DNA of 64,000 nucleotides, from positions 34,410,001 through 34,474,000 of the forward strand of contig OX597822.1 of NCBI GenBank assembly GCA_951406725.2, given 5' to 3'. The notes under the pieces were generated by a model that saw nothing but the letters and a program-made list of their open reading frames with translations, ran no database searches and was not told the origin of the DNA. A program made the position numbers and the translations under genes. Below, one piece after another: positions 24,969 through 62,770 of the stretch. Within the stretch, counting starts at the first letter, position 1; every line of letters starts with the position of its first letter. The stretch is from Octopus vulgaris. Its lineage: Eukaryota.

Positions 24969-26850
24969 ATGGCTGAAACTAACACCACCATAGATGAAAC
25001 TAACAACGTCACCACTGATGAAAACAGAATTATTTCACCAGTAAGTTAATTAAGAAAGACATAAGGACTCTTTTCATTTTACTTGGACTCAACAACTAAA
25101 CCAAGATTTACTTCGGTGCTATGAAAAAGCCCAAGATGACCCCTTCAATCGGATACATGAAGTGGTTAAAACAATACTGGGACAAAGCTTATCCCAACTT
25201 AAATACTTCACGACGAAACAGCTCTGACAACAAGCATCTTTTGTAAAAAAACAAATCAACTGATCCTCGATCCTCCCAAACACTGAAAATGGATCAAAAT
25301 CTGCCTGTAGCGGCGTAAACAATAATGTAAACAGACCACCGCTTCCGCCATCGCTAAATTTGAGCGTGTCTCCAAATTTAGCTGACTCAGTAGCGAAGAC
25401 TGCGGAATACATCCATCACAAATACGTCTTAAAATTACAATTCGCAAAAAATCTTGCTATTTTCTCGAAGCTTTCGTTGAACAAAAGACTATTCCCAACA
25501 CGAGTAAGAAAAAATCCGACGCAATCTCATGTTTAAGTTTATCAACAATGTTGCTGGAGAGCACACGGAATCCTGTGAAGCTAATTACTGGAATATTAAT
25601 AGTCATATACACAGCTGCTATTATTCTTAGAGAACACCTAAGAGAAATCTACAGCGAACAAAACAACGAAATTACTAAACGGAAACAACCTAGATGGAAA
25701 ACAAAACTTGAAGAAGACGTCAACAACGAGCGCCGCCATATTGGATGCTTAACTACAACAGTAAAATGTAAGGAGAAAAATGAGTTACCCCCTCACTAAC
25801 TTTACCTTAGACAAAAATTAACGAAACTTTATAGCAACTCTTCACATCGAGCACTTGAGGGAAAGCTAATCAATTTAAAACATGAACCCAGGACGATGAG
25901 CAAGAAATTCTGCTATCGAATGCGAATTTTTGAGCGAGCCAGTCTCAATCGCAAGTTTGCTTCCAACCCACAAGTATTATACAGAGAGATGAGGCAGGAA
26001 TATATTACCATTAAGAAAGCTCCCTCCCAAGAAGATCATTCTGGTAAAAAATTTGAAACGAAAAGAGGGATTTTAACCTGAACGCATCATGGTTAAATAC
26101 AGTTGAGAGAGAATACTGTACCAACACTAACAGTAAATCATACAATATTGATGTAGAAACCTTCGCTATAGCAGTAGGCAAACTGCAGATGGGGAAGCAC
26201 CTAAAAGTTGGATATTTGTACAAGAAGCCGACATTTTATAGAAACCAATTGAAGTGTATGTTTAAATGGACTATGGAAAGTCAGATTGATATACCAAATT
26301 GGCTTGCTACAGCAAGGGCAAATCTAGTTGCCAAAAATGAAATCACCGAGATAGCAGGAAACTACAGGTCCATTGCTTGCCTAAACATTATGTACAAACT
26401 GTACGCAAGTTGCCACAGCCAATTCCTCCAGGACCATTGTGAGTCAAACGACATTGTGACTGATGACTGGAAAGAAGGGAGTGTGGGGGATGTGCCGAAA
26501 GAATTTTAATAAACAAAGCTTTACTGTCTGAAGTAAGAAAACAACGCAGAAACATTGTGACAGTATGGCTTGATTATAAGAAAGTATTCGACTCTATCCC
26601 TCATTTATGGTTGTTGAAGTTCCTATATTTGGCAAAAGTACCTACTACCTTAATTGCTGCTTTAGAGAGAGACTCAAAGACATGGACAACTATTCTTACC
26701 CTTACAACTGAGAACAATAACTGTTTCTAATAGTATAGGCATTACAAAGGGAGTGTTCCAGGGAGATAGTCTTTCTGTACTTCTTTTCATTTTGGCACTG
26801 AATCCAATATCGTTTCTACTACAGAAAACAAGTGGTTGCATGCTAGGATC
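24969..26850 (+). mobile_element. Degenerate R4/Dong-like LINE, N-terminal region and reverse transcriptase (pseudogene, 3'-truncated)
   Basis: RT motifs across frameshifts: IPNWLATARANLVAK...NYRSIACLNIMYKLY, VWLDYKKVFDSIPH and GVFQGDSLSVLLFILALNPIS. Confidence 0.85.
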
Positions 26851-27245
26851 TTCAATTGCAGTATTGAGAATTCTCGATCGGCACTATTCGGACGATTATG
26901 GTCCCTGTTATTGTATATCTTTTCATTCATGTGCCTTTCTTATGGCATTCGAGTGGTTTTGTTCTTATTCCTGGTAATGTAGGTGTTTCCTAAAACCCTA
27001 ATCACATTTAACAGCATATGTAATTCTCATTGTTGGTGAAACATTCCAAGCTGATGCTTATATTAATTTTAAGATAAGGAAGAAATAATTGTCAATGCAT
27101 TATATTTCATTTAATAGAATAAATTTGGCATGCCGCAGTTTCCGGTAGTGGTTATAGGTTCGTTACCGATAGTTTTATTCAATTGTCTATTGATCAGTTG
27201 AGAAAAGTTGACCGACCTAAAGAATTAGTGTTACTTTCGCCAGAG

Positions 27246-27308
<63 letters not shown>

Positions 27309-27335
27309 TATAAACAATTAATTTATTTACATTAC

Positions 27336-27542
27336 ATTGATAAATGGGGTATAGCTGATTATGTATGGTAAAATGGAGACCACTTCCCCCTGTGGGACAG
27401 AGAACACCACTGGAAAATACGAAAATTAAAGAAGCAGCACATATGCTAGCACACAACAACCTCCTAAGCAGGTCGGGTGCAGATATGAATAGCATATGGG
27501 AGCCGGTATTAAGGAAGGAAAGAAAAATATTAGATTTATAAG
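27336..27542 (+). pseudogene. C-terminal remnant of a Penelope-like GIY-YIG endonuclease ORF
   Basis: Translates to IDKWGIADYVW*NGDHFPLWDREHHWKIRKLKEAAHMLAHNNLLSRSGADMNSIWEPVLRKERKILDL*. The pattern GIAxH/Y...W...RKLKEA is typical of the PLE endonuclease end. Confidence 0.7.
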
Positions 27543-27571
27543 CCCTAAAAATTCACTCCAAAATTGCCCAC

Positions 27572-27826
27572 GGGCATATGGCGTAGTGGTTAAGAGCGCG
27601 GGCTACTAATCCCGAGTTCGATTCCAGCCAGTGATCTGAATAAAAATAATAATAATAACATCGAAAAATACCTTAGGAATGAGAAACCAGGTTCGAAATT
27701 GCCCCAAGACACCCGATGAATGCTGAAGGGTATATCAGACGAAACGTTGTGTTAACAGTCAACAAGACGACAAATATCCGTCAAATGTAAATAATGTATA
27801 TAATTCTTCATCTCTCAAATATAGAA
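27572..27826 (+). mobile_element. tRNA-like head plus hammerhead-bearing PLE terminal repeat (copy 1)
   Basis: A box tggcgtagtgg and B box gagttcgattcc (27614-27625), then a degenerate HHR gacac-ccgatga-a-tgctg...cagac-gaaa-cgtt-gtgtt (27708-27753). Homologous to 62496-62770. Confidence 0.8.
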
Positions 27827-27960
27827 ATGAAGTAATTTACTATTAAATATAAAAATATAAATTGTTTTTGAGTTACGAAGCAATTTGTCAGGATATTAGA
27901 ACTTTCTTATTAAATAAAATTTCATCGTACCCCTTGTCTGTCATTCATGACAGACAAATC

Positions 27961-60887: not shown

Positions 60888-62075
60888 GTGGAAATCCTCG
60901 GGACTTTCAACCAATTTTCCAGGAAGTTGGGAAATCCCTGGAACTTTCCATAAAATCCTCGCAGCTTTCCAGGAAGTTTCCAACCAGTTTTGCAGGGATT
61001 TAGGGGGATCCCCGGAACTTTCCATGAAATCACCGGAAATTTCCAGAAAGTTTCGGACCAAATTTGCAGCAAGCTGGGAAATCCCCGGAACTTTCCATGA
61101 ATTCCTCGGATCTTTCCAGAAAGTTTCCGACCAGTTATCCAGGAAGTTAGGGGAATCCCCGGAAATTTTCAGTAAGTTTCCGACCAATTTTCTATGTAGT
61201 TGAAGTGTCCCCAGAACATTCCATGAAAATCTCGGATCTTTCTAGGAAGTTGGGAAATCCCCGGAACTTTCCATGAAATCCTCGGAACGTTCCAGGAGGT
61301 TTTGGGCAAGTTTTCTAGGAATTTCGGGGAATCCCCGGAAGTTTCCACGCAATCGTTGGAACTTTCCAGGAAGTTTCCGACAAATTTTCCAGGAATTTAG
61401 GGGAGTTCCCTATACTTTTCATGAAATCCTCGGAACTTTCCAGGAAGGTTCCGACCAATTTCCCCGGAAGTTGGGAGATCCCCGGAAACTTCCACGAAAT
61501 CCTCGAAACTTTCCTATCAAATTTCCAGGAAGTTGGGAAATCCCCGGAACTTTCCGTGAAATCATCGGATCTTCCCAGGAAGTTTCCCACAAATATTCCA
61601 GGAATTTAGGGGAATCCCCGGAACTTTCCATGATATCCGCGAAACTTTCCAGGAAGTTTCCGACCAACTATCCAGGAAGTTGGGAAATCCCCGGAACTGT
61701 CCATGAAATCATCGGATCTTCCCAGGAAGTTTCTGACAAATATTCCAGGAATTTAGGGGAATCCCCGGAAATTTCCATGAAATCCTCGGAACTTTGCAGG
61801 AAGTTTCCGACCAATTTTCCAGGAAGTTGGGAAATCCCCGAAACTTTCCACGAAAACCTCGGAACTTTCCAGGAATGTTATGACCAATTTTCAATGAAGT
61901 TGGGGCATCCCCGGAAATTTTCATGAAATCCTCGGAACTTTGCACGGTGTTTCCGATCAAGTTTCCATGAATTTGGTGAATCCCCGGAACTTTACATGAA
62001 ATCCTCGGGACTTTCCAGGAAGTTTTCGACCAATTTTTCAGGAAGTTATAAAATCCTCGAAACTTCGAGGAAGTT
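60888..62075. repeat. Tandem minisatellite, 73/74-bp monomer (147-bp dimer), about 16 units
   Basis: The unit is approximately catgaaatcctcggaactttccaggaagtttccgaccaattttccaggaagttgggaaatccccggaactttc. Unit starts at 60949, 61023, 61096 ... 61555, 61629, 61702, 61776, 61849, 61922, 61995. Confidence 0.92.
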
Positions 62076-62495: not shown

Positions 62496-62770
62496 CAGTT
62501 CTATATTTTAGAGATGAGGAATTATATACATTATTTACATTCGATGGATATTTGTCCTCATCTTGTTTGTTGTTAACACAACGTTTCGGCTGATATACTC
62601 TCCAGCCTTCTTCAGGTGTCTTGTGGAAATTTCGAACCTGTGTTCTCATTCCTAATGTATTTTTCGATGCTATTATTGTTGTTGTTGTTAGTGTTCAGGT
62701 CACTGCTTGGAATCGAATTTGGAATCTTGGAGTTAGTAGCCCGCGCTCTTAACCACTGCACCATATGTCC
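62496..62770 (-). mobile_element. tRNA-like head plus hammerhead-bearing PLE terminal repeat (copy 2, without the upstream ORF)
   Basis: Reverse complement of the 27572-27826 unit: ggacatatggtgcagtggttaagagcgcgggctactaac...ttcgattcc...taggaatgagaacacaggttcgaaattt... Confidence 0.85.
62575..62620 (-). ncRNA. Minimal type I hammerhead ribozyme motif
   Basis: Reads gacac-CUGAAGA-a-ggcug gagaguauau cagcc-GAAA-cg-UU-guguu. Stem I is gacac/guguu, both core boxes are intact, stem II is 5 bp, and stem III is the palindrome AACGUU typical of dimerising PLE hammerheads. Activity is untested. Confidence 0.7.

What the first reader, a model, noticed from the sequence alone, without database searches (positions are those of the whole stretch)
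27336..27826. Penelope-like 3' end fused to a tRNA-like Pol III promoter upstream of a hammerhead: a possible self-processing SINE born inside a PLE
Seen in sequence: a GIY-YIG C-terminal remnant (stop at about 27542) is followed 30 bp later by a tRNA-like head (A box tggcgtagtgg, Ser-like arm gggctACTaa, B box gagttcgattcc), then an AAT-rich linker and an HHR motif. The same head+HHR unit occurs alone at 62496-62770. Established knowledge: PLE terminal repeats carry minimal hammerheads, and Schistosoma SM-alpha is a tRNA-headed SINE with an HHR. Inference: this PLE family may carry an internal Pol III promoter in its terminal repeat, which could drive element transcription and/or spawn a non-autonomous tRNA-HHR SINE mobilised by PLE RT. 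I do not know of this architecture being described in cephalopods.
Basis: partly seen in the sequence, partly recalled or inferred. Interest (0 to 1): 0.75.

Follow-up and report, generated by a model that had tools for sequence, protein, structure and literature searches.

The report
Penelope element with Pol III promoter
This is the broken tail of a very abundant protein-coding jumping gene (a Penelope-like element) whose end repeat carries a tRNA-type promoter in front of a predicted self-cutting RNA, and the pattern of its copies suggests that the whole element, protein gene included, was likely read by RNA polymerase III, an enzyme normally used only for short non-coding RNAs.

Summary
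Observation confirmed and family-wide. The locus is a 5'-truncated copy of a Penelope/Poseidon PLE (835-aa RT + GIY-YIG ORF in a script-built consensus). Its pseudo-LTR is tRNA head + (AAT)n + minimal hammerhead + tail. The head follows the stop codon in 29 of 29 other top copies and is Arg-like, not Ser-like. Solo units are not a separate SINE: no diagnostic differences were found. Three signatures point to Pol III transcription of the whole element. (1) 79 of 92 head-bearing copies start within 22 nt of the head, including 5 of 8 ORF-carrying copies that reach it. (2) The 2.65-kb sense strand has no TTTT (4.7 expected); 68 head-less PLE controls show 1.47 times expectation. (3) The only weak terminator, TCTTT, lies 80 nt past the repeat, where 17 of 63 internal 3' ends pile up, which would give a built-in short SINE-like RNA. 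Rival: Pol II from a TATA-like motif 28 nt upstream of the same start. No bench or RNA evidence; this copy's hammerhead is mutated. I found no paper on this architecture. The scan noted a like reading earlier on other DNA of this genome (e1-8669850).

The parts
27322..27335 (-). short inverted piece of the element's tail at the 5' junction (typical PLE inversion)
   Evidence: read from sequence
27336..27541 (+). C-terminal end of the PLE ORF (GIY-YIG domain tail, family residues 762-835), broken by a stop and a frameshift; stop codon 27539-27541
   Evidence: family C-terminus vs GIY-YIG-bearing P0093 E=3e-32
27537..27542 (+). TATA-like motif overlapping the stop codon, 28-29 nt before the inferred start (could serve TFIIIB or Pol II)
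   Evidence: function inferred
27565..27576 (+). 5-bp hairpin spanning the inferred transcription start (G at 27566); primes fold-back inverted copies
   Evidence: 53 of 79 head-start copies have an inverted unit segment upstream; template-jump junctions land on this G
27572..27640 (+). tRNA-derived head, Arg(ACG)-like, T-stem broken; A box 27579-27589, B box 27614-27625; 8-nt deletion in this copy
27641..27660 (+). (AAT)n linker, variable in length between copies
27679..27829 (+). N-terminal 50 codons of the ORF inside the pseudo-LTR (ATG 27679), reading through the hammerhead; stop in this copy
27708..27753 (+). minimal type I hammerhead (5-bp stem I, extra A, stem II, palindromic ACGU in place of stem III); predicted cut after 27748; core mutated in this copy
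   Evidence: descriptor from PMC4209133
27787..27829 (+). PLE 'tail': two preferred 3' ends (about 27797-27804 and 27829)
   Evidence: ends cluster at unit 234-244 and 265-278
62496..62770 (-). solo pseudo-LTR copy starting at the head, hammerhead core intact

Best explanation
The locus is a 5'-truncated copy of an autonomous Penelope/Poseidon retroelement whose pseudo-LTR contains a tRNA-derived A/B-box head, and this head likely acts as an RNA polymerase III promoter for the whole element. Shown: ORF-head-(AAT)n-hammerhead-tail order, partial tandems, thousands of copies, a sharp 5' boundary of copies at the head, absence of TTTT on the sense strand, and a single TCTTT 80 nt past the repeat. 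Inferred: Pol III starts at the G 13 nt before the A box. Part of the transcripts would stop at the leaky TCTTT, giving a ~355-nt RNA that holds head, hammerhead and both RT start sites; the element's own RT copies it into the many solo 'SINE-like' units. The rest would read through the terminator-free 2.5-kb ORF to give the coding and full-length template RNA. A hairpin at the RNA 5' end likely primes fold-back second-strand synthesis, giving the inverted pairs. The head probably came from a tRNA-Arg-type retrocopy or SINE head with an AAT tail inserted into an ordinary PLE repeat. How the uncapped RNA is translated is unknown; the AUG lies 5' of the predicted hammerhead cut.
For: Architecture. 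5' ends: 79 of 92 head-anchored copies start at -6..+15, none at -7..-18, 13 extend upstream; 8.5% expected at the upstream truncation rate. Tail-anchored: 22 of the 27 copies (of 77) that reach position +20 start at -7..+20. Of all 69 pattern matches to the repeat-to-ORF junction, 8 reach the head start and 5 begin at -7..+5 (P 0.0002-0.01). Six template-jump junctions land on the same G (inspection). Terminators: 0 TTTT in 2652 nt sense vs 29 antisense; expected 4.7; P(0)=0.017 with protein and codon use fixed, 0.009 by shuffle; T, TT and TTT runs are at expectation. TTTT+TVTTT: 1 observed, 8.2 expected, P=0.002 (0.004 synonymous null); not seen for C, G or A. 30 single aged copies O/E 0.23 vs 1.47 in 68 PLE loci of other animals and 1.65 in 20 copies of a LINE of the same genome. 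No control PLE shows a tRNA head in its 3' repeat. 17 of 63 mapped internal 3' ends lie at 338-351, next to the only TCTTT at 346-350, vs 6 and 6 in the flanking 35-37 nt. TCTTT gives about 50% Pol III termination in HeLa (PMC8466645, passages).
Against: No direct transcription evidence. Three RNA-seq runs of a related organism give equal depth in both read orientations, no start or end peaks and very low ORF depth. A TATA-like motif 28 nt upstream predicts a Pol II start at the same base, so the 5' peak alone does not name the polymerase. The T-run loss is one lineage, so one evolutionary data point, and the copies are not independent of the consensus. GGGG is also absent (3.4 expected). The match of the 3'-end peak to TCTTT was noticed after the fact and could be an RT start preference. 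3 of 8 ORF-carrying copies and 13 of 92 heads extend upstream of the start, so longer RNAs exist. The family is old (median 91% to consensus), no intact ORF was seen in the fetched copies, and terminator rules are taken from mammals. Kojima 2024 argues Pol III is too weakly processive for autonomous elements (PMC10886601, passages).
Confidence: 0.63

Rival explanations
1. The element is transcribed by Pol II from the TATA-like motif at the stop codon, starting at the same base. The tRNA head is a passenger insertion, and the lack of T runs is chance or has another cause.
For: TATA-like motif 28 nt before the inferred start; 6 of 20 control PLE repeats have a TATA-like motif 38-50 nt before the hammerhead; a Pol II-type internal promoter is reported for Drosophila Penelope (PMC2377424, abstract); a capped mRNA would solve translation.
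Against: Does not explain the T-specific, threshold-like loss of TTTT and TVTTT, the contrast with controls, the 3'-end peak at the only TCTTT, or intact A/B boxes in a head whose T-stem is broken.
Confidence: 0.2
2. Dual use: the ORF is read by Pol II, while the head drives only short Pol III RNAs that spread as a non-autonomous tRNA-hammerhead SINE.
For: Solo units outnumber ORF-linked ones about 6:1 (79 vs 13); leaky terminator just past the repeat; SM-alpha precedent (review PMC6765202, passages).
Against: No diagnostic positions separate solo from ORF-linked units; no direct tandems in 92; solo copies end before the TCTTT; selection on a short RNA would not clear T runs from 2.3 kb of ORF.
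Confidence: 0.12
3. The 5' peak is a reverse-transcription artefact: the small hairpin at the head, or RNase P cutting of the tRNA-like fold in a longer RNA, makes copies stop there, and there is no promoter in the head.
For: Hairpin at the boundary and 53 of 79 copies with inverted segments; 10 of 92 copies start exactly at +1; a palindrome also marks the hammerhead-site peak.
Against: Template jumps without fold-back also land on the G 6 nt before the head, which needs a leader; T-stem broken; does not explain the T-run loss.
Confidence: 0.05

Closest known systems
Penelope/Poseidon PLEs, e.g. Poseidon_Ac of the green anole (PMC11167929, parts 1-2 of 4 read)
   Same: RT + C-terminal GIY-YIG, pseudo-LTR, ORF start overlapping the hammerhead region with the cut site inside the ORF, two RT start sites forming the tail, minimal hammerhead
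   Different: tRNA-derived A/B-box head in the repeat; terminator-free sense strand; strong excess of copies starting at the head. The promoter of PAc was not defined in the parts read.
TRIMp3 elements Cassandra, Helenus, Ajax (PMC10886601, passages read)
   Same: small-RNA-derived Pol III promoter inside a terminal repeat, probably gained by SINE insertion
   Different: those are short non-autonomous LTR elements (311-1263 bp); this is an autonomous 2.65-kb PLE with a ribozyme
Schistosoma SM-alpha / Sj-alpha SINE-like hammerhead repeats (seen only through review PMC6765202, passages; the original paper is not held)
   Same: Pol III-type promoter followed by a type I hammerhead
   Different: non-coding tandem repeats; here the unit is the end repeat of a coding element, the hammerhead is minimal, and direct tandems were not seen (0 of 92)
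Non-LTR retrozymes as PLE repeat derivatives (bioRxiv 10.64898/2026.07.22.740005, parts 1-2 of 5 plus term search; PMC7229834, passages)
   Same: short hammerhead units derived from PLE repeats; a headless tandem derivative of this family exists (L511-L516)
   Different: no tRNA head or Pol III term in that preprint; solo units here are dispersed or inverted, not tandem
R2 non-LTR retrotransposons (review passages; Pol I use recalled)
   Same: coding retroelement with a 5' ribozyme and a likely uncapped mRNA made by a polymerase other than Pol II
   Different: R2 is co-transcribed with rDNA and has no promoter; here an own Pol III-type promoter is inferred

Membership tests
Penelope/Poseidon PLE | single ORF with PLE-type RT | tested here: met
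   835-aa consensus ORF; RVT_1 E=5.6e-10 on a real copy; 550 homologs
Penelope/Poseidon PLE | C-terminal GIY-YIG endonuclease with CCHH motif | tested here: met
   indirect: no Pfam hit on the family's own segment, but 38% identity, E=3e-32 to the C-terminus of P0093 (PF01541 on record); 3 of 12 aligned members hit GIY-YIG; motifs line up
Penelope/Poseidon PLE | pseudo-LTRs from partial tandems, inverted 5' segments, optional 30-40-nt tail | tested here: met
Penelope/Poseidon PLE | minimal type I hammerhead in the repeat | tested here: met
   by pattern and fold only (core intact in 20 of 56 copies); no Rfam hit; cleavage not tested
Penelope/Poseidon PLE | no Zn-finger-like linker between RT and EN (unlike Neptune/Nematis); clade placement by tree | tested here: inconclusive
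   no CxxC linker visible in alignment; no tree with named references was built
tRNA-derived SINE (SINE2) | tRNA-derived head with A and B boxes | tested here: met
   score 67 vs shuffle maximum 45 against own tRNA-Arg; 70 Arg, 47 Ser, 58-63 other SINE heads
tRNA-derived SINE (SINE2) | non-autonomous family distinct from its partner element | tested here: not met
   unit is the repeat of the coding element; no diagnostic positions in 79 solo vs 49 ORF-linked copies
tRNA-derived SINE (SINE2) | transcription by Pol III | not testable with these tools
   indirect signatures only; RNA-seq uninformative
SM-alpha / non-LTR retrozyme | head-to-tail tandem non-coding units | tested here: not met
   0 of 92 heads preceded by a unit tail
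TRIMp3 (Cassandra/Helenus/Ajax) | non-coding LTR element with PBS and PPT | tested here: not met
   coding PLE ORF between the repeats; PBS/PPT not searched
Octopus OK/OR1/OR2 SINEs (Ohshima and Okada 1994) | identity to the published consensus, CORE domain for OR1/OR2 | not tested
   paper not held; only citations seen; no reference sequence available

The most novel reading that the evidence does not exclude
An autonomous, protein-coding retrotransposon that switched to RNA polymerase III: it captured a tRNA promoter in its end repeat, purged Pol III terminators from a 2.5-kb ORF, and kept one leaky terminator that splits output between a full-length coding RNA and a built-in short SINE-like RNA. 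It would be a natural Pol III mRNA and a snapshot of how tRNA-hammerhead SINEs such as SM-alpha arise.
Probability: 0.5. Interest if true: 0.88.

Novelty: new variant of a known kind. Interest (0 to 1): 0.72.

Why it matters
Coding retroelements are assumed to need Pol II (stated for LTR elements in PMC10886601). A 2.65-kb coding element under a Pol III promoter would break that rule, raise the question of cap-independent translation with a hammerhead inside the ORF, and give a concrete route from an autonomous PLE to SINE-like and retrozyme-like offspring. It makes the open question of PLE promoters directly testable with a few point mutants. It also means over ten thousand repeats in this genome that look like SINEs or tRNA pseudogenes are PLE ends.

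Tried and rejected
ARAGORN and Rfam on the window and on eight copies: no tRNA or hammerhead call for this family (the tRNA hits are another SINE). Pfam on the window peptides and the family's endonuclease segment: no hit. PDB sequence search: only weak RT matches. Ser origin of the head: rejected against own tRNA-Ser(GCT); only Arg(ACG), Ser(GCT) and three SINE heads were compared, so the donor is not pinned. Identity with the octopus OR2 SINE: considered from recall, not testable; no paper held all four terms. No RNA holder listed in the run index. RNA-seq lay: no strand bias, no start or end peaks. In vivo hammerhead cleavage from 5' ends: 5 of 77 copies start at 185-188 and 3 of 69 at 187-190, but a palindrome there gives the same pattern, so it is not counted. 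A tRNA-like head in control locus L323 is an unrelated insertion upstream of a truncated copy. Search for head-less PLE families in the same genome with a distant protein returned only this family (30 of 30), so a LINE served as in-genome control. Look-up of earlier findings by sequence gave nothing. Literature: nine searches found no PLE with a tRNA head or Pol III promoter; Repbase, Dfam, subscription journals, two papers not held and all supplements were not seen and may hold this family under a SINE or Penelope name.

Full report
Setting. The window lies in a 2.8-Gb animal genome (G000:C9:34410001-34474000). Positions such as +346 count from the first base of the tRNA head in the family consensus, with 0 as the base before it.

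1. Observation. The ORF remnant matches residues 762-835 of the family protein at 72-85% identity. The head starts 30 nt after the stop. The junction is not a chance adjacency: 29 of 29 other top hits to the upstream part show the head next (28 of 29 by BLAST; four are one segmental duplication). Exact patterns give 5093 head and 10412 tail matches, and 0 for reversed controls. DNA contigs of four other organism labels cover all 30 bins of the element, ORF and repeat; the listed pieces reach only 21-23 nt into the head, so the junction is not formally bridged there, but in one run 32 contigs show the same fold-back loose end at the head start. In this copy the hammerhead core is mutated; my core pattern is intact in the 62.5-kb copy and in 20 of 56 sampled copies.

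2. What it is. Walking upstream through longer copies gave a 2652-nt monomer with an 835-aa ORF (consensus built in a script). Real copies hit RVT_1 and 550 database proteins. The C-terminus matches a GIY-YIG-bearing homolog at E=3e-32, and the catalytic and CCHH motifs line up, although Pfam does not call the family's own segment. The 269-nt head-linker-hammerhead-tail unit is found both after the ORF and before its start, so it is the pseudo-LTR. The ORF begins inside it, 5' of the hammerhead, much as in Poseidon_Ac (PMC11167929, parts 1-2 of 4). Copies end at two preferred sites, the PLE tail. The hammerhead fits the minimal type described for PLEs (PMC4209133, parts 1-2 of 4). Copies are a median 91% identical to the consensus, so the family is old. 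The head aligns best to the genome's own tRNA-Arg(ACG) (70), then three SINE heads of the genome (58-63), then tRNA-Ser(GCT) (47).

3. Where copies start. I took the first 90 of 100 listed head matches on contig C1 (92 copies in the fetched DNA). 79 start between -6 and +15, none between -7 and -18, and 13 extend 19 to 684 or more nt into the ORF. At the upstream truncation rate only 8.5% should end in 22 nt. The sample requires positions 15-38, so 4 copies sit at its edge. A tail-anchored sample of 77 gives 5 ORF-linked, 22 at -7..+20 and 50 shorter. All 69 genome matches to the repeat-to-ORF-start junction were fetched: 8 reach the head start, 5 begin at -7..+5 and 3 extend upstream. RNAs that start at the head therefore also run into the ORF. 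A 5-bp hairpin spans the boundary, and 53 of 79 head-start copies have an inverted piece upstream. Six junctions where the RT jumped templates land on the G at -5 (window 27566; inspection), 13 nt before the A box, a usual distance for a type 2 Pol III start (recalled).

4. Terminator signature. The sense strand has no run of four T in 2652 nt, against 29 on the antisense strand. P(0) is 0.017 with protein and codon use fixed and 0.009 by shuffle. Shorter T runs are at expectation. Adding the weak terminators TVTTT (PMC8466645, passages), 1 is seen where 8.2 are expected (P=0.002), and the same statistic is not depleted for C, G or A. GGGG alone is also absent (3.4 expected). Thirty single copies longer than 1.1 kb keep O/E 0.23. 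Of 80 PLE loci from metagenomes, 78 could be delimited and the 68 of at least 1.1 kb give O/E 1.47; the only two with no TTTT are short. Twenty copies of a LINE of the same genome give 1.65. None of the controls has a B box within 700 nt of the ORF end, an A+B pattern in the repeat, or an ARAGORN call (45 loci scanned). The single TCTTT lies at +346-350. Among the 69 junction copies, 63 had a mapped internal 3' end (6 ran off the fetched stretch); 17 fall at 338-351, mostly with different partners, against 6 in the 35 nt before and 6 in the 37 nt after. I noticed this peak first and the motif afterwards.

5. Mechanism. Shown: architecture, copy boundaries, T-run statistics. Inferred: Pol III initiation at -5; partial termination at TCTTT giving a ~355-nt RNA with both RT start sites (PAc needs the first 172 nt of its ORF, which such an RNA would contain); read-through giving the coding RNA; fold-back priming at the 5' hairpin; origin of the head as an inserted tRNA retrocopy or SINE head. 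Translation of an uncapped RNA is unexplained. Self-cleavage is reported to induce cap-independent translation in viruses (PMC13725137, abstract only), but here the AUG is upstream of the cut. Solo units show no diagnostic differences from ORF-linked ones (the few significant rows lie mostly in or near the anchoring pattern and keep the same majority base) and no direct tandems, so they are best read as by-products of the element's own promoter, not as a separate SINE. Solo copies end before the TCTTT and would need a flanking terminator to spread further.

6. Against. RNA-seq from a related organism (three runs, about 6% read) shows equal depth in both orientations, no start or end peaks and little ORF signal, as expected from passive read-through of many copies; it gives no support. 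A TATA-like motif 28 nt upstream predicts a Pol II start at the same base. The T-run loss is a single lineage. Some copies extend upstream of the start, so tandem or circular templates also exist.

7. Prior work. Nine searches found no PLE with a tRNA head or Pol III promoter. Seen: PMC8557442, PMC6765202, PMC10886601, PMC4758252, PMC4824008, PMC13282606, PMC7229834, PMC8466645 as passages; PMC2377424 and PMC13725137 as abstracts; bioRxiv 10.64898/2026.07.22.740005 parts 1-2 of 5 with a term search showing no 'tRNA' or 'Pol III'. No supplements, Repbase or Dfam were seen. Earlier notes of this scan reached a like reading on other DNA of this genome; I read them after forming mine, they carry no sequence, and they are not independent support.

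8. Verdict. A real, high-copy Penelope/Poseidon element with an unusual tRNA-headed repeat. Pol III transcription of the whole coding element is the best explanation (0.63). New variant of a known kind; interest 0.72.

Noticed in passing
window 26857-27071 (+): Truncated copy of a second repeat (1220 candidates). The full unit carries a canonical type I hammerhead with a long palindromic stem III and occurs as tandem units, like a non-LTR retrozyme; this copy begins about at the predicted cut.
   Followed up: partly
window about 25400-26860 (+): Broken non-LTR retrotransposon RT region, R4/Dong-like by recalled motif; 852 candidates. Used as in-genome control.
   Followed up: partly
L511-L516 (G000:C29, 8.1-14.4 Mb): Headless tandem derivative of this PLE (unit about +103 to +390, hammerhead plus ORF start), formed at a short microhomology; looks like a retrozyme being born.
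   Followed up: no
loci L245, L250, L264, L243, L213, L276: Many copies truncated in the (AAT)n linker are joined to the (AAT)n tails of other retroelements, suggesting targeting of or priming on AAT repeats.
   Followed up: no
window 60905-62070: Array of diverged ~73-nt tandem units just upstream of the solo copy (family D16).
   Followed up: no
window about 60181 from the 3' end on the minus strand; L038, L054, L003: At least three other tRNA-headed SINE families of this genome with heads similar to this one; one may be the donor.
   Followed up: partly
G000:C2:211.89-211.91 Mb and C3:70.85-70.90 Mb: Clusters of tRNA-Arg(ACG) and tRNA-Ser(GCT) genes; many are followed by only four T, so TTTT may terminate Pol III in this host.
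   Followed up: partly
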